From Pyrolobus fumarii 1A (GTDB taxonomy: Archaea; Thermoproteota; Thermoprotei_A; Sulfolobales; Pyrodictiaceae): a stretch of 32,000 nt of DNA. Numbering within the stretch: position 1 is the first letter of the stretch; each line of letters starts with the position of its first letter. A model generated the notes under the pieces. The model was given only the letters and a program-made list of their open reading frames with translations. It had not been told where the DNA came from and did no database searches. The DNA lies in contig NC_015931.1 of the NCBI RefSeq assembly GCF_000223395.1, positions 210,001-242,000 of the forward strand, in the 5' to 3' direction. A program made the translations under genes and the position numbers. Shown in pieces: positions 2,429-32,000 of the stretch.

Positions 2429-2506
<78 letters not shown>

Positions 2507-3001: not shown

Positions 3002-3380
3002 TTGGCGCGCTACTATGCCGATAGCTGTGTCCTGTCGAGGATTCTTAGGGGTAGCCCCGCCTACGAGAGGTATGCCCAGCGAGGAGCTTGTCACTAGCGA
3101 ATTCAACTTATTGGAGCTTGCATACGCGTTGACCAGAGACTATGGTAGAGAGAAAGCGGTTAAGATACTGAGGATAGTACGGGCCTTTGTAACCGTTGTT
3201 CAAGCCACAGATGAAGATTATGTTGAAGCCTCTGCACTACGCATAGAGTTAAAGAAACGGGGCAAGAACCTCTCCCTGATAGACGCCCTAGGCTATGTGC
3301 TTGCAAGACGCCTTAGGATACCATTCCTAACGGGTGATCGTGAATTCAAAGATCTGGATGGAGTAGAATATGTTAAATGA
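3002..3380 (+). pseudogene. vapC: PIN-domain (VapC-like) toxin gene interrupted by a frameshift near 3072-3090
   Basis: The ORF-track ORF 3015-3380 has a PIN C-terminal half (EELVTSEFNLLELAYAL...LSLIDALGYVLARRLRIPFLTGDREFKDL). The expected N-terminus (M)ARYYADSCVLSRILRGSPAYERYAQ, with the first PIN Asp, is in a different frame. It starts at TTG 3002 and stops at TAG 3095-3097. Confidence 0.6.
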
Positions 3381-4583: not shown

Positions 4584-5324
4584 CTAAGCTATCTTCTCAC
4601 AAGCCTCTATGCACTCGTTGCTGACCTCTAGTTTGATCTTTGTGAACTCCATGTTTGCTAGGTCTATTATGAGGAGGTGGCCTGCGAGTGTCTCGCCGTA
4701 CCCTGTTATTAGTTTGATTGCTTCTGTTGCTGCTAGCGTGCCTACTACGCCGGGTGTGACGCCGACGACCGGTATGGGTCGTTGTGGGTCGCGTGGGTTG
4801 CGTACGATGCAGCGCAGGCAGGGGGTTTTGCCTGGTATGATTGTGGTTAGCTGGCCGTACATCCCGTGGATGCCTGCGTGCACGAAGGGTTTGCGGTGTT
4901 TCCAGCAGAGCTCGTCTAGCACTAGCCTCGCGGACCAGTTGTCCAGGCCGTCTATCACGACGTCTGCTCTCTTGACGAGGGGCTCTATGGTCTCCCTGGA
5001 TACTGTTGCCACGTGGGCTTCTATCCTAACGTCGGGGTTGAGCTTTGATAGTCTCTCGGCGGCTACTAGCGCCTTTGGCTTGCCGATATCCTCCTCGGTG
5101 TAGAGCACCTGGCGGTTGAGGTTTGATGGCTCAACAGCGTCCCTATCTACCAGTATCAGGTGGCCGACTCCGGCGAGTGTCAGGTAGAGCGAGGCTATCG
5201 AGCCTAGCCCGCCGACGCCGACTACGAGCACCGTCGCCTGGCGGAGTTTCTCTTGTGCCTCGCGGCCCCAGAGGCGTAGCTGCCTATCGTACCTCTCCAT
5301 GTTCCCGGCGTACCCGTACGCCAT
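4584..5324 (-). CDS. moeB: ThiF/MoeB/UbaA-type E1-like adenylyltransferase
   Basis: 246-aa ORF. Contains RYDRQLRLWG, the Rossmann motif VLVVGVGGLGS, NLNRQ, and two Cys pairs (CLRC, ECIEAC). Its start overlaps the 3' end of the upstream MoaD-MoaE gene. An alternative ATG lies at 5300. Confidence 0.85.
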   Translation of the reverse strand: MAYGYAGNMERYDRQLRLWGREAQEKLRQATVLVVGVGGLGSIASLYLTLAGVGHLILVDRDAVEPSNLNRQVLYTEEDIGKPKALVAAERLSKLNPDVRIEAHVATVSRETIEPLVKRADVVIDGLDNWSARLVLDELCWKHRKPFVHAGIHGMYGQLTTIIPGKTPCLRCIVRNPRDPQRPIPVVGVTPGVVGTLAATEAIKLITGYGETLAGHLLIIDLANMEFTKIKLEVSNECIEACEKIA

Positions 5325-6087
5325 CGCCCATCACCCAGTAGTCTCCATCCGCGCGCCTCTCTAGCTTGAATATGGGGGCCTGGTGCTTCACCTCCTCTAG
5401 GATGCTGCGGGCGGTTTCGAAGGCGGTTTTGCGGTCGCGGGCGGCCACGAGGATGTATATCGTCGTGTCTCCGGGTTTCAGCCTACCAACCCTATGGTAC
5501 ACGATGACGTCGGTGACGCCTTCCCTCTTGGAGTGCTTCTCTGCAATCTCGCGTAGCGTCCTGGACGCTAGAGGCTCGTAAGCCTCGTACACAAGCTCGT
5601 GCACCTCATTGCCATCCACAACACCCTTGACGAACCCTACGAAGACCACTAGCGCTCCACTACCCTTCTTGGACGCTTCCCTCGCAAGCCTAGAGACAAC
5701 CTCGTTCAAGTCGAGCTCCTGCTCTATGAGGCCGGCCTCTACAACCCCGCCGGCCGCAGGCGGCAAGAGCACAACCTCATCCCCGTCGCTCACCACATGG
5801 TCCATGCTAGCGGGGCTCCCATTCACCACCACGAGGGGCTTCAACCCGTGCTCCTCTAGCACTTGGAGTGCTCTTGCCAAGCCAGGCAACCGCCTCCTAG
5901 CCTCCTCGACAACCATACCCACGCTGACGCTGTCCCTCTCAACCTCTAGTGTCAGCTCATCGACGCCCGCCATGTCCCTAAACATGGCTACGAGACGGAG
6001 CCGGACTCTCACACGACCCCCAGCTATAGGCGTGAACGTGCCCCCTAAACCTCCCCCGGAGCACTCTACACAGCCAAGTGGTAACAC
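5284..6087 (-). CDS. moaE: MoaD-like (beta-grasp, ubiquitin-like) domain fused to the MoaE molybdopterin synthase catalytic domain
   Basis: The N-terminal ~90 aa (RVRVRLRLVAMFRDMAG...VVSDGDEVVLLPPAAGG) end in a di-glycine encoded at 5746-5751. A MoaE-like domain follows (ALVVFVGFVKG...EAYEPLA...VIVYHRVGRLKPGDTTIYILVAARDRKTAFE...IFKLE). The real start may be the GTG at 6012 rather than the ATG at 6087. Confidence 0.8.
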   Translation of the reverse strand: MLPLGCVECSGGGLGGTFTPIAGGRVRVRLRLVAMFRDMAGVDELTLEVERDSVSVGMVVEEARRRLPGLARALQVLEEHGLKPLVVVNGSPASMDHVVSDGDEVVLLPPAAGGVVEAGLIEQELDLNEVVSRLAREASKKGSGALVVFVGFVKGVVDGNEVHELVYEAYEPLASRTLREIAEKHSKREGVTDVIVYHRVGRLKPGDTTIYILVAARDRKTAFETARSILEEVKHQAPIFKLERRADGDYWVMGDGVRVRREHGEVR

Positions 6088-6560
6088 GGGTTAGAGTGGC
6101 ACACCTCCCCATCGATGCAAGGCCCGCAGTCGCGCCCCTCAACTACAACCTCTACCTCGCGAATCGGCCCTCCACGCTCTAACATCCACGCGCGTAGCTC
6201 TCCCATACACGAGGCTATCACCCACACAACCCTCCAGACAGCCATGCCGCTAGCGTCGCGAGCACTCGGCACAGCATGGCCGGATGGATGCGTATGTATA
6301 ACGGCGATAACCTCCAGCCCCTTTTCGTCTGCCAGCTCGGAGACCTTCAGCGTAGTCACGGGGTCTACCAGGAACTCTATCCGCGGATGCTCGGCCACGT
6401 TACACCCAAGCTGATAACACATAGATACGCCGCTATCACCATCGATATAGCCGAGGATAAAGCCCCCGACCTCCACTCCACACGTGCATGCCAGAGCTTG
6501 CAGCCTTCTCGCGGCATCCCTGCAGAGGAGTATACGGTTTACACGATCAAGCTTCTGCAA
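6066..6560 (-). CDS. JAMM/MPN+ metalloprotease
   Basis: 164-aa ORF with a TTG start. It carries the JAMM motif HTHPSGHAVPSARD (H-x-H-x7-S-x2-D) with an upstream Glu (AEHPRIEF). Confidence 0.8.
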   Translation of the reverse strand: MQKLDRVNRILLCRDAARRLQALACTCGVEVGGFILGYIDGDSGVSMCYQLGCNVAEHPRIEFLVDPVTTLKVSELADEKGLEVIAVIHTHPSGHAVPSARDASGMAVWRVVWVIASCMGELRAWMLERGGPIREVEVVVEGRDCGPCIDGEVCHSNPCYHLAV

Positions 6561-6839: not shown

Positions 6840-7238
6840 CTGCACGAGCTTGCAATCGTTAACGCGATACTAGCTGAGATCGAGAGGGTGGTGAAGCAAG
6901 GGTATAACGTAGAAGAGGTTGTGGTATACCTCGGCGAGTTGCAGAACGCCGACCGCGAGGTAATCGAGTCGTACCTCAAGAGGCTTGCACCCGAAATAGC
7001 GCCTGGGGTACGCGTGCGCTCTGAGGTTGAGAAGGCTAGGTTTAGGTGCAGGGTTTGCGGCAGTGAATGGAGTCTCCAAGACCTAGACCTCGACGAGGAT
7101 ATACGCGAGGCGGTACACTTCGTACCCGAGGCTATCTACAGCTTCGCTAAGTGTCCTCGCTGCGGGAGCCGGGACTTCGAGATAGTCTCGGGCCGCGGTG
7201 TCAGACTCTCCCTAAAGGTCAGCCGTGGCGAGGGGTAG
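6840..7238 (+). CDS. hypA: Hydrogenase nickel-insertion metallochaperone HypA
   Basis: The ORF track begins at GTG 6888, but hand translation from 6840 gives (L)HELAIVNAILAEIERVVKQG.... This restores the canonical M-H-E N-terminus. Zinc motif CRVCGSEW...CPRCGS. In-frame TAA at 6825-6827. The apparent start codon is CTG, preceded by GGTGG 6 nt upstream. Confidence 0.8.
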   Translation: MHELAIVNAILAEIERVVKQGYNVEEVVVYLGELQNADREVIESYLKRLAPEIAPGVRVRSEVEKARFRCRVCGSEWSLQDLDLDEDIREAVHFVPEAIYSFAKCPRCGSRDFEIVSGRGVRLSLKVSRGEG

Positions 7239-8010
7239 CAGGGTGAGTAACGTGGAGACCCTGAGCATAGACCCTAGGCTTGCTGGAGCGAGACTCATGC
7301 TCTCCAAGGTTAAGAGGATAGTGCTTGTCATGGGCTCTAAGGGTGGGGTGGGGAAGACCCTAATTGCGACGCTGTTAGCCCTCCAGGCGGCAAGGCTCGG
7401 CCTGAGAGTAGGCCTACTGGACCTAGATGTGACGGGCCCATCGGCTCACGTCGTGCTAGGTGTAGACCCTAGGGGCGTCCAGCCGGAGGAAAGGGAGGGC
7501 GTAGTCCCCCCGGAGGTTGCCAGAGGTCTACGTTTCATGTCGATCGTGTTCTACACGTGGGGCAGGCCTACACCCCTACGTGGCGAGTCCGTCGACGAGG
7601 TAATCAAGGAGGTACTGGCGGTCACTAATTGGGGCGAGCTAGACCTCCTGGTGGTCGACACGCCGCCGGGCCTCCGCGACGAGACACTAGACGTACTCGA
7701 GTACCTACCCAACCCCCATGTCGTTGCCGTAACGACACCCTCGAAGCTAGCACAGGCTGGCGTCGAGCGTCTACTAGCGCTGCTAGCGGAGCAGAGGGTA
7801 CCGCGCTACCTAGTGGAGAACATGGCTAGGAACGGTGGCGTGGCGAAGCAGCTAGCCGAGCGTTACGGCGCCGAGTATCTAGGCGTAGTGGGGTACGATC
7901 CGAGCGTAGAGGACGCCATCGGCAGTATAGAGAAGCTGCTGGCGACGCGTGTGGCTAGGGACGTGGAGCGTGTCACGCGCTCGCTGCTAGGGAAGCTTGG
8001 CCTAGCATAG
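7225..8010 (+). CDS. Mrp/MinD (ParA-type) P-loop ATPase, candidate ATPase-type HypB
   Basis: 261-aa ORF with a deviant Walker A (GSKGGVGKT) and Walker B (LLVVDTPPG). It overlaps the hypA stop. Possible starts are GTG 7225, 7243 or 7252. Confidence 0.75.
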   Translation: MARGSRVSNVETLSIDPRLAGARLMLSKVKRIVLVMGSKGGVGKTLIATLLALQAARLGLRVGLLDLDVTGPSAHVVLGVDPRGVQPEEREGVVPPEVARGLRFMSIVFYTWGRPTPLRGESVDEVIKEVLAVTNWGELDLLVVDTPPGLRDETLDVLEYLPNPHVVAVTTPSKLAQAGVERLLALLAEQRVPRYLVENMARNGGVAKQLAERYGAEYLGVVGYDPSVEDAIGSIEKLLATRVARDVERVTRSLLGKLGLA

Positions 8011-15188: not shown

Positions 15189-15683
15189 ATGGTGTGCGTC
15201 CAGCTTTTAAGCGAGAAGCGTGAAGGACAGCAACAATTGCAGACTGTAAGTGGCGAGCGCGTGTTCATAATGCCTGCTGTATTCTACAAAGCGATATTCG
15301 AGGCGCTGCAAAGCGTTGCGGGTGCAGCTGCAAGAAGCTTGATGTACTATATTGGTGTGAAAGCGGGCCGGGCAATGGCAAAAGACGCGTTGAGAGTTAG
15401 GAGCGGTACGGAGAACATAGACTCTGTAAGGGCTATCGCGGAAATCCTGGAGGCCATGGGTGTAGGTAAGCTTGAAAGCGTGGAGAAGGCGGGGTCTGCT
15501 GTAAAGCTTGTGTTGAGTAATACGTTATCCGGGGCCCTAGGGATAGATGGGGGCGAAGGTTGCCATCTTGAGCGTGGACTAGTAGCGGGCATGATGTCCG
15601 AAATGATAGGTAAACGTGTAGTTGTGAAACAAGCGCAAGGCGAGAAGGGCAAATGCGTATTTGAGGTTGAGGTTACAGGCTAG
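15189..15683 (+). CDS. V4R (4-vinyl-reductase-like) domain protein
   Basis: 164-aa ORF. Contains GERVFIMPAVFYKAIFEAL, YYIGVKAGR, and the C-terminal block CHLERGLVAGMMSEMIGKRVVVKQAQGEKGKCVFEVEV, typical of V4R small-molecule-binding domains. Confidence 0.6.
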   Translation: MVCVQLLSEKREGQQQLQTVSGERVFIMPAVFYKAIFEALQSVAGAAARSLMYYIGVKAGRAMAKDALRVRSGTENIDSVRAIAEILEAMGVGKLESVEKAGSAVKLVLSNTLSGALGIDGGEGCHLERGLVAGMMSEMIGKRVVVKQAQGEKGKCVFEVEVTG

Positions 15684-25196: not shown

Positions 25197-26435
25197 CTAT
25201 TGTTGAGCCTCGGTTTCATCCTGTCTTGTAACTTTATCCGTGGTTCTCGGGGGTACGGGCTTCACTATTCTCGCTGAGAGGACGCGAGCGGCTACGTCCG
25301 GCGGGTTTAGTATTGGTGCCTCGGGGAGAGACTCGACCCAAAGACTACGATAGTTCTCGTTTACCTCGCGCGCTTTTACCTCCTCCACTTCACCTCTTTC
25401 AAGCATCTTCTCCAACACTTGCTTCGCCCGGTATACGAGGATGGCCTCCTTTCTCGGGTAGCGCCAGAGATGGTGCTCTGCAAACACCTCGTAGGGAATA
25501 TCGCTATACCATTTCCTATGCTCCTTTTTCAACACGGTTTCTATGAAGCCAGGGTCTTCCAGCTCCTCAATTACCGTAAACTCGTGTAGAGACTTGAATG
25601 GGCATAAGGTGCACGCGACACGTGGCAGACCGTCAAAGTAAGCGGGGTGCACGAGGTCAGCTTCTCTGGTCAACTTGACAACGTCTAGAAGTGTCATTAG
25701 GTATGTTGGGCGGAACTTCCTTCCAGAGAGGTACTCGTGGCGAGATGCTGGTGCGGCTAGCTTCTCGAGCCTCTTTGGGGCCTCCATAATTCTGTCGGCG
25801 ACTACCTCTAGGGCACCACGATGACGCTTCTTATACTCTCTCATAGGCTTGACTTTGAAGAAGGTGCACCACCTGTCACCTCTCCTAGGCAATCCGCGCC
25901 AGAGGAGGTAACTACGGAACTTTCTTCTCGGAGCCTCGATGATTTCAATGTCTATGCTTAACCTCTTCGCGACTTCCTCGACGAACTTGACGTTCCTCGG
26001 GGACTCTATGTATGGTATGTGTATGTAGAGGACATCCAGCTTCAAGCCTAGTTTCTCTGCAAGAGCGAGTAGCACGAGAAGTGCTGCTGTAGAGTCCTTC
26101 CCTCCACTATAACCGAGAGCAACGCGTCTGCCCCGAAGCTCCTTCCCAACGAGCTTGACCAAGCGGTCCACGTGATCTTCCAGTTTCGTTAGGGTGTATG
26201 CATGTACGTAAGGCGCGGCAAGCACCCAGAGGCGATAAGGGATTCTTATATCGCCAATGCGCAGTGTACCATCGCGCTCGAGAAATTTTGTCACATCAGC
26301 GCCACGCTCCTTGTCAAGCCAGAATATGGCTCGTAGCAAACGATGGTCAAGATCATAGTGGACAACGGCCTCTGCAGCCCCACCCTGAAGCAGCTCTGCT
26401 CTACCATTCCTAATCACGGGGTAAAGCTCTGTCAA
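25197..26435 (-). CDS. PAPS-reductase-family PP-loop ATPase with N- and C-terminal extensions
   Basis: 412-aa ORF. Contains the PP-loop ALGYSGGKDSTA, then GDRWCTFFKVKP, then CTLCP. The family core is flanked by an N-terminal extension of about 100 aa and a C-terminal tail of about 110 aa. Confidence 0.7.
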   Translation of the reverse strand: MTELYPVIRNGRAELLQGGAAEAVVHYDLDHRLLRAIFWLDKERGADVTKFLERDGTLRIGDIRIPYRLWVLAAPYVHAYTLTKLEDHVDRLVKLVGKELRGRRVALGYSGGKDSTAALLVLLALAEKLGLKLDVLYIHIPYIESPRNVKFVEEVAKRLSIDIEIIEAPRRKFRSYLLWRGLPRRGDRWCTFFKVKPMREYKKRHRGALEVVADRIMEAPKRLEKLAAPASRHEYLSGRKFRPTYLMTLLDVVKLTREADLVHPAYFDGLPRVACTLCPFKSLHEFTVIEELEDPGFIETVLKKEHRKWYSDIPYEVFAEHHLWRYPRKEAILVYRAKQVLEKMLERGEVEEVKAREVNENYRSLWVESLPEAPILNPPDVAARVLSARIVKPVPPRTTDKVTRQDETEAQQ

Positions 26436-26440
26436 GGGGC

Positions 26441-26746
26441 CTACTCCTCCACGAGCTTGGGCGCCTTGACGAACCCGTCGATAACCTCAACAGCGTTGCG
26501 TAAAGCCTCCTCGCGAGGCAGGCTAGGCTTTGGATCATCGCGTCGTAGCAGCCCCTCCACGTCGCTCGGGTGGTAGAGCGGATCACCCACAACCTTGGCA
26601 TCTAGTAGTACTCTCATCCACTCAAGTATCTTTGACAACTCGGATATCATACGCTCCTCTTCCTCCGGAGTCAAAGAGATCCTAACCATCTCCTCGAGCC
26701 TCTTGACCAGCTCTCTGTCCACTCTCAGCTCGTGCACACAACTCAC
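26441..26746 (-). CDS. gatC: Asp/Glu-tRNA amidotransferase subunit C
   Basis: 101-aa ORF. Contains VDRELVKRLEEMVRISLTPEEEERMISELSKILEWM...LLRRDDPKPSLPREEALRNA...GFVKAPKLV, which fits the GatC pattern throughout. Confidence 0.75.
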   Translation of the reverse strand: MSCVHELRVDRELVKRLEEMVRISLTPEEEERMISELSKILEWMRVLLDAKVVGDPLYHPSDVEGLLRRDDPKPSLPREEALRNAVEVIDGFVKAPKLVEE

Positions 26747-27248
26747 CTGCCAACTCCTCTATGAGAGGGATAGCCTCCCTTATAGCAAGACTAGCGGCCT
26801 CTCCATCAAAAGGTGACCCTATGCCACACTCCACAAGGTAGACGAGTGGGTGTCTGCCAGTGACCGCCTTCGAAACCTCCATAGCCATACAGAGAGCCTC
26901 TAAAAGACCAGCCTCGTGCAGCGCATTCAACTCTAGCTGATCGCAACTCTCCACTATGGTAGTGCGCACCGTGCCCCTGGGTACACGTCGCGATGCATCA
27001 ACTACGATGAGAGCGTCGTAATCATGTATAAGGTGTATCAGTGCTTGTACGCCTCTACCAAGCCATCTTGCCTCGCCACACGGTAGACGTATCTGCTCGA
27101 CAATACTTTTGGCGCATGCATCACCAGGTATAAGCTCATTCCCAAACCCAGCAACAAGCAAACGCAATGGAGTACCTGCCTCCGACCTCCTAGTACCAGC
27201 CAAGCATGGGCTCCTGGCCTTGAAATTAAACCTAGGTGCGGGGGACAT
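26682..27248 (-). CDS. [NiFe]-hydrogenase maturation endopeptidase (HyaD/HybD/FrhD family)
   Basis: Contains LLVAGFGNELIPGDACA, ALIVVDA and ALHEAGLLEAL. A TATA-like CTTTACAA about 30 nt upstream of ATG 27248 supports that start. An alternative TTG at 27167 would give a canonical MRLLVAGFGN N-terminus. The 3' end overlaps gatC. Confidence 0.7.
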   Translation of the reverse strand: MSPAPRFNFKARSPCLAGTRRSEAGTPLRLLVAGFGNELIPGDACAKSIVEQIRLPCGEARWLGRGVQALIHLIHDYDALIVVDASRRVPRGTVRTTIVESCDQLELNALHEAGLLEALCMAMEVSKAVTGRHPLVYLVECGIGSPFDGEAASLAIREAIPLIEELAGELCARAESGQRAGQEARGDG

Positions 27249-27271: not shown

Positions 27272-27334
27272 TTGTAAAGTGTGAAAAACGATATTTGATG
27301 CCACGTGTGTCCGTGTGCCCGGGGTCTTTTATCC
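27272..27334. promoter_or_regulatory. Divergent promoter region between the protease gene and the hydrogenase operon
   Basis: Minus-strand CTTTACAA (27272-27279) lies about 30 nt from ATG 27248. Plus-strand CTTTTATCC (27326-27334) lies about 23 nt from GTG 27353. Both are TATA-like by eye. Confidence 0.35.
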
Positions 27335-27352: not shown

Positions 27353-28357
27353 GTGCTAACCGTGTCTAAGGCTATATCGGAGCATGACAACTTGGCTATG
27401 GTAAAGCCTCTAGTCTCTGAGGAAGAGATATACCTGGATATAGAGGCGATGATCAAGCTTATGGCGATAACAGTACGTGGTCTAGAGCTTGCAGTTGGAC
27501 AGAGAAGCGCAATGGCGCTAGGAACAATCATGGGCTCGCAACTTTACAAAAGCATGTCGCCTAGTATAAAGGGTAAGAACTTGAAGGAGGCTCTCGAGGC
27601 CGTAAACACACGTAGTTTCCGTATAGATGTTTACAAGATGCGAGGAAAAGTGGTCCATGAAGACCCGCAAACGGGGCGCAAGGTGTTCTATTACGTTGGA
27701 CGGGAGTGTCCGATACGACAAATACTATACCACGAGGATATTCCCGCCGGAGGTACACTTTGTCGCATAATGTGTAGTTTCGTGGAACAGTTGTTAGCGG
27801 ATGTACTAGGTGGCAAGTATTCTGTGAAACTGTTGCGTTACGGGCCTAATGCGTGCTTCCTGCGTGTAGAGATAGTTAACGGTCCGCAGCCTCCAGACGA
27901 TGTCGCCGTATACTCGAAGAAACCTAGTCTAGAAGAGTATGTCATGTTGCTACGTGAGGACCTTAGGTCTATACTTGTGGCTTTCGATGCAACTGTAGAT
28001 AGAGTATTGGGCGGCAATCCGACTATGAGTTACATGGCAGGTAAGAGGTATGGACTCCTAGATGGCGACAACCTGCTAAGTACTATTGGCAGAACGATCA
28101 GCGTCGACGAAGCCATAACCGTGCTAAACGTGGCTTACAAAGGTTTGCTAGAGCTGAGCAAGGAGGGTGACGTAATTAGCCTAGAAAGGAGTGTGTTCCA
28201 CGATCTAGTCGAGAAGCTGCAGCTTGGACGTGCAGTCTTCATCTATCGTACTCTGCAAGGCTACCTAGCTGGGCTTTTAGAGAGGCTAACTGGTCACCGT
28301 GTTGACCTACGCGGTTTAGATGAGAAAGCTACGCAACTAAAGATTCTCATGAGGTGA
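27353..28357 (+). CDS. Tandem V4R-like domain protein, first gene of the hydrogenase operon
   Basis: 334-aa ORF. The first half contains GRECPIRQ...GGTLCRIMCSFVEQLLADVLGGKYSVKLLRYGPNACFLRVEIV, which is the same block architecture as the V4R protein at 15189. The second half is a Cys-less repeat ending IYRTLQGYLAGLLERLTGHRVDL. Its stop overlaps the small-subunit start (GTGA). An alternative ATG start lies at 27398. Confidence 0.45.
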   Translation: MLTVSKAISEHDNLAMVKPLVSEEEIYLDIEAMIKLMAITVRGLELAVGQRSAMALGTIMGSQLYKSMSPSIKGKNLKEALEAVNTRSFRIDVYKMRGKVVHEDPQTGRKVFYYVGRECPIRQILYHEDIPAGGTLCRIMCSFVEQLLADVLGGKYSVKLLRYGPNACFLRVEIVNGPQPPDDVAVYSKKPSLEEYVMLLREDLRSILVAFDATVDRVLGGNPTMSYMAGKRYGLLDGDNLLSTIGRTISVDEAITVLNVAYKGLLELSKEGDVISLERSVFHDLVEKLQLGRAVFIYRTLQGYLAGLLERLTGHRVDLRGLDEKATQLKILMR

Positions 28358-29316
28358 AGACCGTGAGTGGCGGGAAGCTCACACTCGCTGTTGTGCCTCT
28401 GACAGGGTGTGGGGGCTGTGAGGTACAAGTGTTGAGGACGTTTGAGAAGTATCCAGAGCTATACGAAAAGTATGATGTGGTGTATTGGCCGCTCGTTGTT
28501 GAAGCCGAGGAGATGCCAGAGAGCGTCGACGTAGTACTAGTGGAAGGTAGTGTTAGGACCAAGAAAGATGTTGACGTGTTAAGAAAGGCGCGTAAAGCTG
28601 CAAGATACTTGATAACCCTAGGCTCTTGTGCAGGCTTCGGCGGTATAAACGGACAGGCTGACTACTTCCCGATAGAAGAGAACATGAAAAGTATCTATGG
28701 TAAAGAGAAGCTAGAAAATAGCGTTGACATGCTAGAAAGACTGTATGCACCCTCGGATGTAGTCCCAGTCGACTATGTAGTACCGAGGTGTCCGCCAACA
28801 CCAGAAGTGTTATACAAAGTGCTCACAGCGGTGTATGAAGGCAAAAGGCCGCCAGCAACCTTGTACAGCGTCTGTACGCAGTGTCCAAGAGAAATGCGCG
28901 AGATAAAGCAAGAGATTACCGAAGAGTTCTTCAAGAAGGGCTTGCCAGGCCCCGATGTTGACCCGAAGACCTGTCTTCTAAGCCAAGGGTACCTATGCAT
29001 GGGGTCAGTAACCATCGTTGGTTGTGGTGCGCCATGTACTAGGGCTGGTATCCCGTGTTTCGGGTGTGGAGGCCCGACAGCCGAAATCGCCGTCCGTAGA
29101 GACCAGGACATACCAGTTGCACTTGCAAGGATAATAGCAACGCTTGCGGGAATGGATCCCATCGAGGGTGGAGAGAAGGTACTCAAGATACTAGAGAAAG
29201 TATACGGCATGAGGAGATTCTATACGTTCACGCTTGAATCCGAAGTTTTCAGAAGAAAGCCACGTGGTTTTGCTATTAGACTCTTGGCAGAGAATAGGAG
29301 GGCGCAGCAAGGGTGA
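28354..29316 (+). CDS. [NiFe]-hydrogenase small subunit, cytoplasmic group-3 type (MvhG/FrhG-like)
   Basis: 320-aa ORF with no Tat signal. Contains LTGCGGCE, LGSCAGFGG, PRCPP and a C-terminal Cys cluster (CTQCP...CLLSQGYLCMG...GCGAPCTRAGIPCFGCGGP). Confidence 0.85.
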   Translation: MKTVSGGKLTLAVVPLTGCGGCEVQVLRTFEKYPELYEKYDVVYWPLVVEAEEMPESVDVVLVEGSVRTKKDVDVLRKARKAARYLITLGSCAGFGGINGQADYFPIEENMKSIYGKEKLENSVDMLERLYAPSDVVPVDYVVPRCPPTPEVLYKVLTAVYEGKRPPATLYSVCTQCPREMREIKQEITEEFFKKGLPGPDVDPKTCLLSQGYLCMGSVTIVGCGAPCTRAGIPCFGCGGPTAEIAVRRDQDIPVALARIIATLAGMDPIEGGEKVLKILEKVYGMRRFYTFTLESEVFRRKPRGFAIRLLAENRRAQQG

Positions 29317-30740
29317 GGCGCATGGCGGGCAAAGAGATTAGGCTAGATATGACACTCATAGAGGGTCACGCCAACGTCCTGATACGTGTAGGTGACGATG
29401 GAAAAGTGGCAGAGAGGGTACTCTACCAGGGTGTCGACACTAGATTCTTCGAGAGACTCTGGGCGGGTATGAACATAGACGAGATGCCAAGAGTAACGCC
29501 AATGATATGCGGAGTTTGCAGTGCGACACACCATGTGTGTAGCGCGCTAGCAGTTGACAAAGTTAGGGGTGTTGAGCCGCCCGAGACTGCGCAAAACATC
29601 AGGGCAATGATAAACCTAGGCATACATCTTAACAACCAGGCGTTGCACCTCGTGGTTATGGGTCTACCGGACTTCCTCCCGGCGAGTGAGAAGAGGCGCA
29701 GCGTGTTCAGGCTAATGGCGTCAAGGCCTGCTCTGGCTAAGACAGGATTGAAGATAATGGAGCTTGGACATACGGTAGTGGCGGTATTCGGCGGTAGAGA
29801 GGTGCATCCGATAAACGCTGTATCTGGTGGTGTTGCTAGGGCTCCCAGCGAGCATGAAGTTAAGGAGCTCCGAGAAAAGTTTGAGAAGCTGAAGAGTGAC
29901 CTAGAGACGTTCAAGAAGGAGGCTTTGAACCTCCTTGCCGAGAGCAAAGAGAAAATATCGAATTACGAGAGCGGGACAGAATACATGTTAGCTGTTGTTG
30001 ATAGCAAGACTGGCGGTTTCACGCCGCTCGAGGGTGTGGCAAAGGTTATCGATAGTAAAGGTAATGTGGTTGTCGAGTTCCGTCCCGAGGAGTACACCAA
30101 GGTTATCGACGAGAAGGTGTTCGACTACACGTATGTCAAGATGCCGGTGTTGAGGAGCAAGGGTTACCCCCAGGGTGGTATGCGTACCGGCCCTCTGGCA
30201 AGAGTAAACATCGTCAAGAGCTATGGTGTTGAAGAGGCTGATGAACTACGTGACAAGCTGTTCGAGGAATGGGGCAGACCAGCGACGCACCCACTACTGT
30301 ACCACTATGCGCGCGTCGTAGAGACAATAGCTGTCTACGAGTTGATACAACGTGCTCTAGATGAGTGGGACTTCTGGAGCACGCCGTTACGGAATTACAC
30401 TGACAGTGTGCGCGGAGAGGGTGTTGCGATGATAGAAGCGCCTAGAGGCACGTTGATACATCATTATAGAGCGAGAGAAGATGGTGCAACTGAGTACGTG
30501 AACGTCATTACGCCAACGACATTTAACGCTGTTGCAATGGAGAACGATTTGACCAAGTTCTTCCAGGGCAAAAATGTTGCCAAGATGAGTGATCGCGAGA
30601 TATATGCACATGCTGTGGCGATAGTGAGGCCTTACGACCCGTGTATGGCTTGTGCAACGCACACAGTAGCTGAGCACCAGCTTGGCAAGATCTTAATAGT
30701 TGATAAAAACTTGAATGTAGTGAGGGAGGTGAAACCGTGA
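29313..30740 (+). CDS. [NiFe]-hydrogenase large subunit, group-3 type (MvhA-like)
   Basis: 475-aa ORF. N-terminal Ni-Fe ligands RVTPMICGVCSATHH. C-terminal DPCMACATH, followed by a 25-aa extension that is the endopeptidase substrate. The start overlaps the small-subunit stop. Confidence 0.9.
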   Translation: MRRMAGKEIRLDMTLIEGHANVLIRVGDDGKVAERVLYQGVDTRFFERLWAGMNIDEMPRVTPMICGVCSATHHVCSALAVDKVRGVEPPETAQNIRAMINLGIHLNNQALHLVVMGLPDFLPASEKRRSVFRLMASRPALAKTGLKIMELGHTVVAVFGGREVHPINAVSGGVARAPSEHEVKELREKFEKLKSDLETFKKEALNLLAESKEKISNYESGTEYMLAVVDSKTGGFTPLEGVAKVIDSKGNVVVEFRPEEYTKVIDEKVFDYTYVKMPVLRSKGYPQGGMRTGPLARVNIVKSYGVEEADELRDKLFEEWGRPATHPLLYHYARVVETIAVYELIQRALDEWDFWSTPLRNYTDSVRGEGVAMIEAPRGTLIHHYRAREDGATEYVNVITPTTFNAVAMENDLTKFFQGKNVAKMSDREIYAHAVAIVRPYDPCMACATHTVAEHQLGKILIVDKNLNVVREVKP

Positions 30741-31057
30741 TGGCTGAGGATATACTTGCACATGTAGAGAAAGTGCAAGAAGAAGTAGAAGTGGCAACCA
30801 AACCTAAAGCTATAATCATCGACAAGAACGTATGCATGAAGTGTTACAACTGTGTCAGATCGTGCACCGTATTCAACAGCGTCTATGAAATCGGCGAAGA
30901 CGGTTATCCCTACGCAGCCCGCCTCGACGACTGTATAATGTGCCTAATGTGCCACTTTGTCTGTCCAACTCGTGCGATAACGCACGTGGGCATCCGAACA
31001 GTGACCATACTAGTGCTTGACAAGGATATCGCGCAAAAGATGACAAAGATAATGTAA
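30737..31057 (+). CDS. 2x[4Fe-4S] ferredoxin-domain protein
   Basis: 106-aa ORF with CMKCYNCVRSC and CIMCLMCHFVCP. ATG 30740 overlaps the large-subunit TGA by 1 nt. Confidence 0.8.
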   Translation: MMAEDILAHVEKVQEEVEVATKPKAIIIDKNVCMKCYNCVRSCTVFNSVYEIGEDGYPYAARLDDCIMCLMCHFVCPTRAITHVGIRTVTILVLDKDIAQKMTKIM

Positions 31058-31204: not shown

Positions 31205-31298
31205 CATTGCGACGGATGTTCTCGCTTGAGGAGTTGATTATAGACACGGCATGAGTTTACACGAGCATCTTGAATATTGTAAGATTATGTTTTAGTGT

Positions 31299-31535
31299 GG
31301 ATGAGGGTCGGCGATGCGGGGCTTCACGCATCCCCCTTGCGGGGCTTGTTAGCCGGGTGTTCCGGGCTTCCTCCTCATCCCGCGGGAAGTGGTAGAAACC
31401 CCCGGCGGTTTCTCGGTAGCGCCGGCCCACCGGCATGCCCGGGGGGCTTTTGCCCCCCGGTGGACCGGGCAACCCCACGGTTCGTCCTCATTGAACGCCG
31501 CCGGGGGTCCATGGTGACGGGTGTGTCCCGGTCTT
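31299..31535. ncRNA. Unclassified GC-rich, hairpin-dense element; candidate structured RNA
   Basis: Hand count gives 160 G+C in the 230 nt of 31301-31530 (~70%), against ~38% in the preceding 98 nt. It contains a multi-helix structure including an 8-bp closing stem around three hairpins, a 9-bp GC hairpin, and an 11-bp long-range complement (details in findings). AATATT lies about 25 nt upstream and CTTTATT/GTTTGTCTT lie just downstream, which favours the plus strand. A GCAA (GNRA) loop appears only on the minus strand. No family could be recognised. Confidence 0.5.
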
Positions 31536-31765
31536 TATTGTATAAGCGTTTGTCTTCAGCTCGTGTTGTGTGGCTCGTCTTTTCGTCGGGCAGGGCGTGG
31601 TATCGTGGCGGGATACGTGGTTGGGCTGGCTCTAGTGGGCGGCTTGATGTTGTTGCTAGGGTGATGCTGGCGGCGTGTTACCCAGGGTGTGATGCGCAAG
31701 GAGGGTGCCTGTTTGCCGCCTCGCTGCAAGGCCCCGCATTGTTCGTGCACGAGGCTGGTGGCAGG

Positions 31766-32000
31766 ATGTGTAGAGAGTATGAGGCCGGCGAGGAGATACT
31801 ACGTGGCTTGCAGGGAGTGTCGCGTTTAAGTATGGTATACCCGGGCTTATCAGGTGTAGAGTTGTTGAGTTTGGCTAAGAGTCTAGGCTACCGGGTTCTT
31901 CTCCTAAGTGAGAGGTGTCCTGTGTCCTGGAGAGTATCGCTCAATAGGCGTGTTGTCGTGCTCGGAGCAGATATTGACCCGCCGTCTGCAGTCCATAGTC
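31766..32000 (+). CDS. Hypothetical protein, 5' part only (runs off the window); start uncertain
   Basis: The frame is open to the window end. The protein-like stretch is MCREYEAGEEILRGLQGVSRLSMVYPGLSGVELLSLAKSLGYRVLLLSERCPVSWRVSLNRRVVVLGADIDPP. Alternative starts are ATG 31832 and TTG 31862. A TATA-like GTTTAAGTA lies at 31823-31831. No family was recognised. Confidence 0.35.
   Translation, partial: MCREYEAGEEILRGLQGVSRLSMVYPGLSGVELLSLAKSLGYRVLLLSERCPVSWRVSLNRRVVVLGADIDPPSAVHS

What the first reader, a model, noticed from the sequence alone, without database searches (positions are those of the whole stretch)
27353..31057. Group-3-like [NiFe]-hydrogenase operon led by a tandem V4R-like protein instead of a redox-partner module
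Four genes are joined by start/stop overlaps: GTGA at 28354-28357, GTGA at 29313-29316, and TGATG at 30738-30742. The order is tandem V4R-like protein, small subunit, large subunit, small 2x[4Fe-4S] ferredoxin.

Cytoplasmic group-3 hydrogenases normally come with one of these partners:
- MvhD/Hdr (group 3c)
- FrhB (group 3a)
- HydB/HydG (group 3b)
- HoxEFU (group 3d)

None of these is present in the window. V4R domains are small-molecule-binding modules. A V4R protein (CorQ) is known to act in regulating a CO-responsive hydrogenase cluster in Thermococcus onnurineus. Here, however, the V4R-like gene is translationally coupled to the structural subunits. That suggests a stoichiometric subunit or chaperone rather than a separate regulator. 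A second, single-domain V4R paralogue lies 12 kb away at 15189-15683.
Basis: partly seen in the sequence, partly recalled or inferred. Interest (0 to 1): 0.65.

Follow-up and report, generated by a model that had tools for sequence, protein, structure and literature searches.

The report
Hydrogenase operon with V4R-fold subunit
In the hyperthermophile Pyrolobus fumarii and its relatives, a soluble hydrogen-splitting enzyme is always encoded with an undescribed double "small-molecule-sensor-like" protein where related enzymes encode their electron-coupling partner, so this looks like an unrecognised variant of a well-known enzyme class.

Summary
Window 27353-31057 (Pyrolobus fumarii) holds four tightly packed genes: a 334-aa protein "X", a [NiFe]-hydrogenase small subunit (12 Cys, inferred 3x[4Fe-4S]), a large subunit (both Ni-Fe Cys motifs, cleavable tail) and a 2x[4Fe-4S] ferredoxin. 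The quoted junctions GTGA, GTGA and TGATG are exact.

X has no Pfam or NCBIfam hit. Its AlphaFold model (pLDDT 86) is an internal duplication. The N-domain model's best PDB matches are the MopR/PoxR/DmpR sensor domains, then Bet3/TRAPPC3 and the MJ1460 V4R protein. Profile-profile comparison links both halves to V4R-like proteins. "Tandem V4R-like" therefore holds at fold and superfamily level only.

The catalytic core is closest to MvhA/MvhG (group 3c) but forms its own clade. In about 17 distinct loci, including two very divergent hydrogenase lineages and two split operons, an X homologue lies immediately 5' of the small-subunit gene. A canonical crenarchaeal 3c locus has HdrA and MvhD there instead.

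X co-diverges with the subunits (r about 0.9) and keeps an invariant Cys3+Glu motif. Its P. delaneyi orthologue was detected in a published proteome alongside the subunits.

Most likely X is an integral metal-binding sensor or docking subunit of an Hdr-independent H2:ferredoxin-type hydrogenase. This is unproven, and it is a new variant of a known kind.

The parts
26682..27248 (-). Divergently transcribed putative hydrogenase maturation endopeptidase. It would cleave the C-terminal tail of the large subunit.
   Evidence: TIGR00072 hydrogenase maturation protease scores 30.5 bits (cut-off 47.45) and Pfam HycI has E 0.0037. The same divergent position is conserved in L002, L008 and L009 at 52-59% identity. 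The large subunit has a 25-aa tail after DPCMACATH.
27327..27332 (+). TTTTAT, a TATA-box-like element about 25-30 nt upstream of the X start codons. It suggests a near-leaderless operon transcript.
   Evidence: Read directly from the sequence. This is inference only. The bacterial promoter scan does not apply to archaea.
27353..28357 (+). Gene X: a 334-aa tandem V4R/Bet3-fold protein (alternative start GTG 27362, giving 331 aa). It is the first gene of the operon.
   Evidence: No Pfam or NCBIfam hit. AF2 model has pLDDT 86 and pTM 0.84. Top Foldseek PDB hits are PoxR, MopR and DmpR. The N-half matches the C-half by hhalign at 98% probability, E 1e-13. There are only 30 relatives in 1.84 billion representatives. 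It is always 5' of the small subunit.
27416..27907 (+). X N-terminal V4R-like domain (residues 22-185), which carries the invariant Cys/Glu motif.
   Evidence: Domain model has pLDDT 80. Foldseek gives 19 PDB hits at E<=1e-3 (MopR/PoxR/DmpR, Asgard TRAPPC3) with TMq 0.52-0.59, followed by BcsD, Bet3, YslB, H-NOX and MJ1460 V4R.
27707..27856 (+). Putative metal-binding site codons: C119 (27707-09), E128 (27734-36), C137 (27761-63), C141 (27773-75, Pyrodictiaceae subset only) and C168 (27854-56).
   Evidence: C119, P120, R122, E128, C137, G164 and C168 are invariant in 15 orthologues down to 21% overall identity. These are the only cysteines in X. The MopR V4R-type sensor domain has a structural Zn site with three Cys ligands (PMC9556785).
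27908..28354 (+). X C-terminal V4R-like domain (residues 186-334), which has no cysteines.
   Evidence: hhalign against the Pyrfu_0255 V4R-like family gives probability 97%, E 7e-11. The secondary-structure pattern repeats that of the N-domain.
28354..29316 (+). [NiFe]-hydrogenase small subunit (MvhG/VhuG-like). Its 12 Cys suggest three all-Cys [4Fe-4S] clusters, and it has no Tat signal.
   Evidence: Oxidored_q6 E 3.5e-25. VhuG scores 184 bits (cut-off 450). Best PDB hit is MvhG 5odc_E at 173 bits.
29313..30740 (+). [NiFe]-hydrogenase large subunit (MvhA-like) with both Ni-Fe Cys pairs and a 25-aa C-terminal tail.
   Evidence: NiFeSe_Hases E 1.4e-31. VhuA scores 246 bits (cut-off 800). Best PDB hit is MvhA 5odc_F at 273 bits. 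Motifs are ICGVCSATH at residue 65 and DPCMACATH at residue 442. It falls in a distinct clade in the NJ tree.
30740..31057 (+). 2x[4Fe-4S] ferredoxin-like subunit (105 aa from ATG 30740, or 106 aa from GTG 30737).
   Evidence: Two CxxCxxCxxxC motifs. Fer4 family hits. A ferredoxin follows the large subunit in all complete loci except L024, where no ferredoxin gene is called after it.

Best explanation
The four genes encode one cytoplasmic, Hdr-independent [NiFe]-hydrogenase complex. It belongs to a hydrogenase lineage specific to the Pyrodictiaceae and Desulfurococcales.

**Catalytic core (shown by motifs and homology).** The large and small subunits descend from the MvhA/MvhG (group 3c-like) stock. 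H2 is split at the Ni-Fe site. Electrons then pass along the three [4Fe-4S] clusters of the small subunit.

**Electron exit (inferred).** Electrons pass to the co-encoded 2x[4Fe-4S] ferredoxin-like subunit and from there to soluble low-potential acceptors. This would supply ferredoxin-level reductant for biosynthesis and CO2 fixation. That is thermodynamically feasible directly from H2 at around 100 C.

**Operon logic (my inference).** The gene order X-small-large-ferredoxin parallels mvhD-G-A-B. X occupies the slot that MvhD (plus HdrA) holds in canonical 3c operons.

**Role of X (inferred).** X is a stoichiometric, non-catalytic subunit made of two V4R/Bet3-fold domains. Its N-domain holds a metal, most likely structural or redox-responsive Zn as in MopR-type V4R sensor domains, through the invariant Cys119/Cys137/Cys168 (+Glu128) site. 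It would serve as a ligand- or redox-sensing and/or docking module on the small subunit. In that role it would tune or direct electron output rather than carry out catalysis.
For: **Operon and cofactor motifs**
-.

**Core is closest to Mvh**
- MvhA 273 bits and MvhG 173 bits are the best PDB hits.
- NCBIfam VhuA and VhuG are the best family hits but score far below their equivalog cut-offs.

**Distinct clade**
- Large-subunit identity is 42-79% inside the clade and drops to about 34% outside it.
- The NJ tree separates the clade from the sampled 3c/3d enzymes.

**X fold**
-.

**X is strictly linked to the hydrogenase**
- All loci with an X homologue have it immediately upstream of the small subunit.
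- This includes the divergent short-large-subunit lineage L016-L018, the split operons L019 and L025 where X stays with the small subunit, and L024.
- The canonical crenarchaeal 3c locus L021 has HdrA-like and MvhD(FlpD) genes in that position and no X.

**Co-divergence**
- X against small r=0.90, X against large r=0.92, compared with small against large r=0.94.

**Invariant Cys3-Glu motif**
-. The MopR Zn-site precedent is in PMC9556785.

**Expression**
- The P. delaneyi orthologue Pyrde_1297 (same 90% cluster as P0007) was detected at TMT intensities of 90-250.
- By comparison, the small subunit gave 56-155, the large subunit 21-139 and Pyrde_1300 19-64 (PMC8105010 supplement).

**Physiology**
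- P. fumarii succinyl-CoA reduction needs reduced methyl viologen, not NAD(P)H (PMC3156397).
- No protein named Hdr or heterodisulfide reductase appears in the P. delaneyi proteome tables.
- HypA plus an Mrp-type ATPase is present in the window, so X is not needed as a Ni chaperone.
Against: - No physical evidence shows that X binds the hydrogenase. A co-fold could not be run.
- TMT intensities are not absolute abundances, and X responded to growth condition (log2FC 1.75) more than the catalytic subunits did.
- The metal identity is unknown. The positions of the Cys ligands differ from the MopR pattern, so the Zn analogy rests on composition only.
- An Hdr or other partner could be encoded elsewhere in the genome. 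This could not be tested here.
- Whole-cell extracts of P. delaneyi show NADP-linked hydrogenase activity (PMC8105010). That could mean a different acceptor, or it could be indirect via a ferredoxin:NAD(P) oxidoreductase.
- Synteny and co-divergence are equally expected for a dedicated chaperone.
Confidence: 0.5

Rival explanations
1. X is a redox subunit. The invariant Cys119/Cys137/Cys168 (+Glu128, or Cys141 in Pyrodictiaceae) would ligate an Fe-S cluster. X would then functionally replace MvhD as the electron relay from the small subunit, possibly to a substrate or cofactor bound in the V4R pocket. That would define a new physiological acceptor.
For: - X sits in the MvhD slot of an mvhDGAB-like gene order.
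- The Cys motif is invariant across 15 orthologues, and a fourth Cys is present in the Pyrodictiaceae subset.
- X is retained next to the small subunit in split operons.
- L024 lacks the downstream ferredoxin but keeps X, and has a divergent Pyr_redox_2 flavoprotein nearby.
Against: - The only structural precedent found for Cys sites in this fold is structural Zn in MopR.
- Only three Cys are universal.
- The fold has no known Fe-S member among the Foldseek hits.
- The co-encoded 2x[4Fe-4S] ferredoxin already provides an electron exit.
Confidence: 0.2
2. X is a dedicated assembly or maturation chaperone for this hydrogenase lineage, for example one that holds the small subunit during Fe-S loading. 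It would not be part of the mature enzyme.
For: - Accessory genes are commonly co-transcribed with hydrogenase structural genes (general knowledge).
- X is always adjacent to the small subunit.
- It has a metal-binding-type motif.
Against: - The X orthologue's proteomic signal is as high as or higher than the catalytic subunits.
- V4R/Bet3-fold proteins matched here are ligand sensors or scaffolds, not chaperones.
- HypA plus an Mrp-type ATPase and a maturation protease are already encoded in the window.
Confidence: 0.12
3. X is a stand-alone small-molecule or redox sensor acting in gene regulation, in the manner of the V4R component of CorQR. It would be co-transcribed with the operon it controls and would work with a DNA-binding partner encoded elsewhere.
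For: - V4R-fold domains are typically sensor modules in regulators (MopR, PoxR, DmpR).
- CorQR controls a CODH-hydrogenase cluster (PMC6557876).
- NCBIfam weakly relates Pyrfu_0255 to MsvR.
- A single-domain relative is next to a Roadblock/LC7 gene.
- X abundance changes with growth condition.
Against: - X has no DNA-binding domain, and no conserved regulator gene is adjacent across loci.
- Its abundance is comparable to the structural subunits.
- Its position is invariant, immediately 5' of the small subunit with gaps of 15 nt or less or overlaps, across lineages whose large subunits are only 21-28% identical.
Confidence: 0.12
4. This is an ordinary group 3c Mvh hydrogenase whose MvhD/HdrABC partners are simply encoded elsewhere in the genome. 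X would be an unrelated neighbour.
For: - Mvh is the closest solved relative.
- The genome beyond the window could not be searched.
Against: - X is syntenic in about 17 distinct loci, including very divergent ones.
- The clade is separate from the sampled 3c/3d enzymes.
- VhuA and VhuG equivalog cut-offs are missed by a wide margin.
- A canonical crenarchaeal 3c locus keeps Hdr and MvhD adjacent.
- No Hdr-named proteins appear in the P. delaneyi proteome tables.
Confidence: 0.06

Closest known systems
MvhADG(-B)/HdrABC, group 3c F420-non-reducing [NiFe]-hydrogenase (e.g. PDB 5ODC)
   Same: - The large and small subunits are the best solved matches (273 and 173 bits).
- The small subunit's 12 Cys are consistent with three [4Fe-4S] clusters, and the enzyme is cytoplasmic.
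- The gene order parallels mvhD-G-A-B, with an Fe-S protein after the large subunit.
   Different: - There is no MvhD (FlpD) or HdrABC in the window or in any related locus. X occupies the MvhD/HdrA slot.
- The downstream Fe-S protein is a 2-cluster ferredoxin, not a polyferredoxin.
- Identity to 3c enzymes is only about 34%, the clade is separate, and NCBIfam equivalog cut-offs are not met.
- No flavin subunit is present, so flavin-based electron bifurcation is not expected.
MopR/PoxR/DmpR aromatic-sensor (V4R-containing) domains of sigma-54 activators
   Same: - They are the best structural matches to X and to its N-domain (E down to 8.5e-5, probability 1.0, TMq 0.52-0.59).
- They have a Cys-based metal site near a ligand pocket. 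In MopR it is a structural Zn with three Cys ligands.
   Different: - X has no AAA+ or DNA-binding output domains.
- X is a tandem duplication.
- The Cys ligands are at different sequence positions.
- X is encoded inside an enzyme operon.
- Sequence identity is 9-16%.
Archaeal stand-alone V4R proteins (Pfam PF02830; MJ1460, PDB 2OSO; Pyrfu_0255 in this window) and Bet3/TRAPPC3
   Same: - Same fold.
- hhalign links both X halves to the Pyrfu_0255 family at 83-97% probability.
- Bet3-type proteins act as scaffold subunits that form dimers, which the tandem X could mimic within one chain.
   Different: - X does not reach any Pfam V4R score.
- X has two domains and an invariant CPxRQ...E...C...GPNAC motif.
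- X is exclusively hydrogenase-linked.
CorQR CO-responsive regulator pair of Thermococcus onnurineus
   Same: A V4R-domain protein functionally tied to a hydrogenase gene cluster (PMC6557876).
   Different: - CorQR is a separate two-protein transcriptional regulator with a LysR-type DNA-binding partner, flanking a CODH-ECH (group 4) cluster.
- X has no such partner nearby.
- X is translationally coupled to the structural subunits of a group 3 enzyme.
Group 3b sulfhydrogenase (SHI/SHII) and group 3d Hox enzymes
   Same: They are soluble multimeric [NiFe]-hydrogenases of (hyper)thermophiles. The P. delaneyi authors attributed NADP-linked activity to the orthologous enzyme.
   Different: - No HydB/HydG or HoxEFU diaphorase genes are present.
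- Similarity is lower: SHI alpha 135 bits and HoxH 209 bits, against MvhA 273 bits.

Membership tests
[NiFe]-hydrogenase, group 3 (cytoplasmic, multimeric) | The large subunit has the N-terminal xCGxCxxxH and C-terminal DPCxxCxxH Ni-Fe ligand motifs. | tested here: met
   ICGVCSATH at residue 65 and DPCMACATH at residue 442, followed by a 25-aa tail. PF00374 E 1.4e-31.
[NiFe]-hydrogenase, group 3 (cytoplasmic, multimeric) | A short NuoB-like small subunit without a Tat signal. The closest relatives are group 3 enzymes. | tested here: met
   Oxidored_q6 E 3.5e-25. No RR motif in the N-terminus. The top PDB hits are all group 3 enzymes: Mvh, SHI, Hox and Frh.
Group 3c (Mvh/Vhu, Hdr-linked) | Sequence membership: VhuA/VhuG equivalog scores, or clustering within 3c. 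| tested here: not met
   VhuA scores 246 bits against a cut-off of 800, and VhuG 184 against 450. Identity to 3c/3d enzymes is about 34%. The clade is separate in the NJ tree. HydDB or a maximum-likelihood phylogeny with references was not available.
Group 3c (Mvh/Vhu, Hdr-linked) | An MvhD ([2Fe-2S], FlpD family) subunit encoded with the hydrogenase. | tested here: not met
   No FlpD domain is present in the window or in the related loci. It is present in the canonical locus L021.
Group 3c (Mvh/Vhu, Hdr-linked) | A physical or genetic link to HdrABC. | not testable with these tools
   None is in the window or the loci. The rest of the P. fumarii genome could not be searched. No Hdr-named protein appears in the P. 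delaneyi proteome tables, which is weak evidence only.
Pfam V4R (PF02830) | A score at or above the gathering threshold (31 bits). | tested here: not met
   No hit for X or for either half, even at E<=10. Remote relatives reach only sub-threshold scores, with a best E of 6.3e-6.
V4R/Bet3-like fold superfamily | Structural similarity to solved V4R, Bet3 and MopR-type domains, plus profile-level homology. | tested here: met
   The N-domain model gives 19 PDB hits at E<=1e-3 (MopR/PoxR/DmpR, TRAPPC3), followed by Bet3, YslB and MJ1460 V4R. hhalign against the Pyrfu_0255 V4R-like family gives probability 83% (N-half) and 97% (C-half).
V4R/Bet3-like fold superfamily | A tandem (duplicated) arrangement. 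| tested here: met
   N-half against C-half by hhalign gives probability 98.1%, E 1.3e-13. The secondary-structure pattern is repeated.
MopR-type structural Zn site | Three Cys (+Glu) ligands at the canonical V4R positions that bind Zn. | tested here: inconclusive
   X has an invariant set of 3 Cys + 1 Glu, but C119 and E128 lie in a different sequence position from the MopR ligands C155, C181 and C189.
2x[4Fe-4S] bacterial-type ferredoxin | Two CxxCxxCxxxC(P) motifs. | tested here: met
   CMKCYNCVRSC and CIMCLMCHFVC(P). Fer4 family hits.
Hydrogenase maturation endopeptidase (HycI/HybD) | A family-level score, plus a substrate with a cleavable C-terminal tail. | tested here: inconclusive
   TIGR00072 scores 30.5 bits (below 47.45) and HycI 17.5 bits (below 23). 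The large subunit does have a tail, and the gene is syntenic in close relatives.

The most novel reading that the evidence does not exclude
X defines a new subclass of group 3 [NiFe]-hydrogenases in which a built-in tandem V4R ligand- or redox-sensing subunit replaces the MvhD/Hdr coupling module. One possibility is that it allosterically gates the enzyme in response to a small molecule or to oxidation of its Cys-metal site. The other is that it forms the binding site for a physiological electron acceptor not yet known. Either would be a mode of hydrogenase control or coupling not described for any hydrogenase group, and it would be conserved across at least two deeply divergent crenarchaeal hydrogenase lineages.
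Probability: 0.3. Interest if true: 0.8.

Novelty: new variant of a known kind. Interest (0 to 1): 0.6.

Why it matters
Group 3 hydrogenases are classified and understood through their partner modules: F420, NAD(P), Hdr or the diaphorase. Those modules dictate what H2 is coupled to.

Here a whole clade in hyperthermophilic Crenarchaeota, plus a second minimal-looking lineage, has none of them. Pyrolobus, which grows up to 113 C (my general knowledge), and Pyrodictium belong to this clade. Both lineages instead carry an unannotated protein built from a fold otherwise used for small-molecule sensing and scaffolding.

If X is a true subunit, three things follow:
- It marks a new subgroup that current annotation misses. 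The published P. delaneyi work counted only two subunits.
- It bears on how obligate H2-autotrophs at around 100 C obtain ferredoxin-level reductant without electron bifurcation.
- It offers a natural example of a hydrogenase with a built-in sensor or docking module, which interests enzyme engineers.

The question is directly testable, because the orthologue is expressed in a cultivable organism.

Tried and rejected
- Pfam and NCBIfam scans of X and of each half, up to E<=10, gave nothing.
- A sequence-profile search of the X family against PDB sequences gave only noise, with E>0.1. Fold comparison was needed.
- The first whole-protein Foldseek search gave the right hits but only modest E-values of about 3e-3. 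Re-modelling the N-domain alone improved this.
- The 'Minimal and hybrid hydrogenases' paper, which I recalled as possibly relevant, concerns [FeFe] enzymes and was dropped.
- The Greening 2016 hydrogenase survey is not held, so no HydDB-style class for the Pyrolobus enzyme could be read.
- The context look-up for Pyrodictium occultum P0026 failed because there is no exact record.
- Contexts of the single-domain relatives P0137 and P0141 were on contigs of about 1 kb and were nearly uninformative.
- The sigma-70 promoter and intrinsic-terminator scan was run but does not apply to an archaeon.
- I considered X as a Ni metallochaperone filling the 'missing HypB' noted for P. delaneyi. I down-weighted this because the window itself encodes HypA plus an Mrp/NBP35-type ATPase.
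- I considered X as a known hydrogenase subunit and rejected it, because there is no family match.
- I considered that the synteny might be local only and rejected that. It persists to large-subunit identities of 21-28% and through operon splits.
- Which of CorQ and CorR carries the V4R domain could not be settled from held papers.

Full report
**1. Source and observation**

The window is from Pyrolobus fumarii. The 334-aa protein and the large subunit are 100% identical to NCBI P. fumarii proteins on a 1.84-Mb contig.

| Gene | Coordinates | Length |
|---|---|---|
| X | 27353-28357 | 334 aa |
| Small subunit | 28354-29316 | 320 aa |
| Large subunit | 29313-30740 | 475 aa |
| Ferredoxin | 30737/30740-31057 | 106/105 aa |

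The quoted junctions are exact: GTGA at 28354-57, GTGA at 29313-16 and TGATG at 30738-42.

Each junction also carries a GGTGA-type Shine-Dalgarno-like motif. Starts a few codons downstream are plausible for X (27362), the small subunit (28363) and the large subunit (29322, matching NCBI's 472-aa protein). Even so, the genes would be 5 nt or less apart.

A TTTTAT element lies about 25 nt upstream of the X start. The ferredoxin stop is followed by a T-containing stretch. My inference is that the four genes form one unit.

A weakly scoring hydrogenase maturation protease is transcribed divergently at 26682-27248.

**2. The catalytic core**

- The large subunit has both Ni-Fe ligand motifs (ICGVCSATH, DPCMACATH) and a 25-aa C-terminal tail.
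- The small subunit has 12 Cys, consistent with three all-Cys [4Fe-4S] clusters, and no twin-arginine motif.
- The ferredoxin has two CxxCxxCxxxC motifs.

The best solved relatives are MvhA (5ODC_F, 273 bits) and MvhG (5ODC_E, 173 bits). They score ahead of the HydABCSL-type enzyme 7T2R, HoxH, sulfhydrogenase I and Frh. The best NCBIfam models are VhuA and VhuG, but at 246 against 800 and 184 against 450 bits they are far below the equivalog cut-offs.

In the 5.8-billion-protein search, the large subunit has about 37 relatives at 42-79% identity. Identity then drops abruptly to about 34% for ordinary 3c/3d-type enzymes. A neighbour-joining tree recovers the X-linked sequences as one clade, separate from the sampled 3c/3d sequences. 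That tree is quick and lacks reference sets, so it is indicative only.

No Hdr, MvhD/FlpD, FrhB, HydB/G or HoxEFU domain occurs anywhere in the window.

**3. What X is**

X has no Pfam or NCBIfam hit, even at E<=10, whether whole or as halves. It is rare: 7 hits in the word-indexed search and 30 hits at E<=1e-3 among 1.84 billion representatives in the exhaustive profile search.

*Fold evidence.*
- AlphaFold2 with the family alignment gives a confident model (pLDDT 86, pTM 0.84) with a twice-repeated helix-helix-helix / strand-strand-strand / helix-helix / strand-strand pattern.
- Foldseek against the PDB puts the PoxR, MopR and DmpR phenol-sensor domains first, followed by BcsD, YslB, Bet3, MJ1460 (annotated as vinyl-4-reductase family) and H-NOX.
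- Modelling the N-domain alone (pLDDT 80) sharpened this to 19 hits at E<=1e-3. All are MopR/PoxR/DmpR or Asgard TRAPPC3, with TMq 0.52-0.59.

*Profile evidence (hhalign).*

| Comparison | Probability | E-value |
|---|---|---|
| X N-half vs X C-half | 98.1% | 1.3e-13 |
| X C-half vs Pyrfu_0255 family | 97% | 7e-11 |
| X N-half vs Pyrfu_0255 family | 83% | 9e-6 |

The Pyrfu_0255 family is the family of window gene 15189-15683. UniRef names that gene a 4VR-domain protein, and its Pfam V4R score is 22.7 bits, below the threshold of 31.

Ten of the 27 remote relatives give sub-threshold Pfam V4R hits and six give sub-threshold ATC_hydrolase hits.

*Conclusion.* 'Tandem V4R-like' is correct at fold and superfamily level. 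Strict Pfam V4R membership is not met.

**4. A conserved metal-type site**

X has exactly four cysteines, all in the N-domain. Across 15 orthologues, down to 21% overall identity, C119, P120, R122, E128, C137, G164 and C168 are invariant. C141 is present only in the Pyrodictiaceae subset.

The MopR sensor domain has a structural Zn site with three Cys ligands about 10 Å from its ligand pocket (PMC9556785). X's Cys3+Glu set resembles it in composition. In the hhalign alignment, C137 and C168 align with the two Cys of the Pyrfu_0255 V4R-like family. C119 and E128 come from an earlier helix.

I could not access model coordinates to check that these residues cluster in space, and the metal is unknown.

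**5. Synteny**

This is the strongest result. Every locus encoding an X homologue has that gene immediately 5' of a hydrogenase small-subunit gene.

- *Close Pyrolobus-like loci (L002, L008, L009).* They also keep the divergent protease-GatC-PP-loop genes.
- *Pyrodictium, Hyperthermus and Pyrodictiaceae MAGs and other Thermoproteota (L001, L004, L006, L011-L015).* Same order.
- *L016-L018.* This is a very divergent lineage. Its large subunits are about 380-405 aa and only 21-28% identical to the window's. In L018 the C-terminal motif is NPCLSCAAC, with almost no tail.
- *L019 and L025.* The operon is split, so X+small face large+ferredoxin divergently.
- *L024.* It has X, small and large, but no ferredoxin gene is called after the large subunit. 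A divergent Pyr_redox_2 flavoprotein lies nearby.
- *L020.* X and the small subunit are each broken into two ORFs, which suggests decay or assembly error.

By contrast, a canonical crenarchaeal 3c locus (L021, Staphylothermus-type, 34% large-subunit identity) has HdrA-like, MvhD(FlpD), small, large, then HdrC/HdrB-like genes, and no X.

The order X-small-large-ferredoxin therefore mirrors mvhD-G-A-B with X in the MvhD/HdrA slot. This parallel is my inference.

Pairwise identities co-vary as follows:

| Pair | Pearson r |
|---|---|
| X vs small | 0.90 |
| X vs large | 0.92 |
| Small vs large | 0.94 |

**6. Expression**

Pyrde_1297 (UniProt A0A0P0N4P9) is in the same 90% cluster as P0007, which is 41% identical to X.

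In the published P. delaneyi TMT proteome it is listed as 'Uncharacterized protein' (PMC8105010 supplement):

| Protein | TMT intensity |
|---|---|
| Pyrde_1297 (X orthologue) | 90-250 |
| Pyrde_1298 (small subunit) | 56-155 |
| Pyrde_1299 (large subunit) | 21-139 |
| Pyrde_1300 | 19-64 |

Pyrde_1297 was higher on ferrihydrite (log2FC 1.75, adjusted P 0.019).

The authors counted only Pyrde_1298-1299 as a 'type 3 cytoplasmic hydrogenase', and they measured NADP-linked hydrogenase activity in whole-cell extracts.

TMT intensities are not absolute. Still, this does not look like a trace-level regulator.

**7. Mechanism**

*Shown.* A cytoplasmic Mvh-related Ni-Fe core with three clusters, a co-encoded 2-cluster ferredoxin and a strictly co-inherited, co-expressed tandem V4R-fold protein with an invariant Cys3-Glu site.

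*Inferred.*
- H2-derived electrons leave via the ferredoxin-like subunit to low-potential acceptors.
- P. fumarii needs such reductant. Its succinyl-CoA reduction depends on reduced methyl viologen rather than NAD(P)H (PMC3156397).
- Direct H2-to-ferredoxin transfer is thermodynamically easier at around 100 C (established thermodynamics, not computed here).
- X is a stoichiometric sensor or docking subunit on the small subunit.

Confidence in this explanation is 0.5.

*Rivals.*

| Rival | Confidence |
|---|---|
| X is an Fe-S relay or acceptor-binding redox subunit | 0.2 |
| X is a dedicated assembly chaperone | 0.12 |
| X is a co-transcribed sensor for gene regulation | 0.12 |
| Ordinary 3c enzyme with Hdr encoded elsewhere | 0.06 |

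A Ni-chaperone role is less needed, because the window encodes HypA (6888-7238) overlapping an Mrp/NBP35-type ATPase (7225-8010).

**8. Novelty**

Searches of the held literature found no description of such a partner. The searches covered V4R or 4-vinyl reductase with hydrogenase, the Pyrfu and Pyrde locus tags, and Pyrodictium with group 3c.

I rate it a new variant of a known kind: a group 3 [NiFe]-hydrogenase lineage, or lineages, with a previously unrecognised conserved fourth component replacing the canonical coupling module.

Interest is 0.6. It would be moderately surprising to hydrogenase specialists and is directly testable in a cultivable organism. The biochemical role of X remains inferred.

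Noticed in passing
window 6888-7238 (+) and 7225-8010 (+): HypA (PF01155, E 2.9e-13) overlaps by 14 nt a downstream Mrp/NBP35-type P-loop ATPase (PF10609 ParA/NUBPL, E 2.7e-44). From memory, this looks like the archaeal HypA + Mrp/MinD-type 'HypB' Ni-insertion pair. It may explain why the P. delaneyi genome paper reported no HypB.
   Followed up: partly
window 15189-15683 (+): Pyrfu_0255 is a 164-aa single-domain V4R-like protein. Its Pfam V4R score is 22.7 bits (below 31), and it weakly matches the MsvR C-terminal region in NCBIfam. Only 6 relatives turned up in the 5.8-billion-protein search. It is a remote relative of both X halves.
   Followed up: yes
window 4584-6560 (-): A cluster of ThiF/E1-like (4584-5324), a ThiS/MoaD-MoaE fusion (5284-6087) and a prokaryotic JAB domain protein (6066-6560). 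This looks like an archaeal ubiquitin-like (SAMP-type) or molybdopterin sulfur-transfer module.
   Followed up: no
L016 3437-4651, L017 4251-5399, L018 7351-8541: A very divergent [NiFe] large-subunit lineage from Desulfurococcales/Thermoproteota MAGs. Open frames are 383-405 codons (396 aa in L018) and identity to the window's large subunit is 21-28%. In L018 the C-terminal motif is NPCLSCAAC (Cys in place of the usual His) with almost no tail. These loci still have the X-small-large-ferredoxin order, so this may be an unclassified minimal group-3-like hydrogenase.
   Followed up: partly
L019 2954-6696 and L025 3153-6873: Split versions of the operon, in which X+small subunit are transcribed divergently from large subunit+ferredoxin. 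X stays with the small subunit. In L025 the large subunit is called as two ORFs of 239 and 208 aa.
   Followed up: partly
L024 3180-4939 (-): In the one X-linked locus that lacks a ferredoxin gene after the large subunit, two genes lie divergently upstream of X: a 285-aa unannotated protein and a 301-aa Pyr_redox_2 flavoprotein (thioredoxin-reductase-like). They could be an alternative redox partner.
   Followed up: no
window 25197-27248 (-): The putative hydrogenase maturation protease, GatC and a 412-aa PAPS-reductase/PP-loop protein form a divergent gene string that is conserved in the three closest relatives (L002, L008, L009) but not beyond. As called, the GatC ORF start overlaps the protease ORF end by 65 nt, so one of the starts is probably mis-set.
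   Followed up: partly
window 31283-32000 (+): An open frame of 239 codons runs off the 3' end of the window. It is Gly/Pro/Arg-rich, has no Pfam hit and there is no Rfam hit in the region. It may be non-coding GC-rich sequence.
   Followed up: partly
L022 238-1181: A single-domain relative of X's N-domain (P0137, with the CPIRQ...LC...GPNAC motif) sits directly downstream of a Roadblock/LC7 gene. This hints that the stand-alone cousins act in NTPase-linked signalling. The contig is only 1.2 kb.
   Followed up: no
window 3015-3380 (+); 2222-2297 and 2429-2506 (+): A PIN-domain protein (E 7e-13), with tRNA-Gln(TTG) and tRNA-Arg(CCG) just upstream. The 464-aa ORF at 783-2177 and the 142-aa ORF at 240-668 have no Pfam hit.
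   Followed up: no
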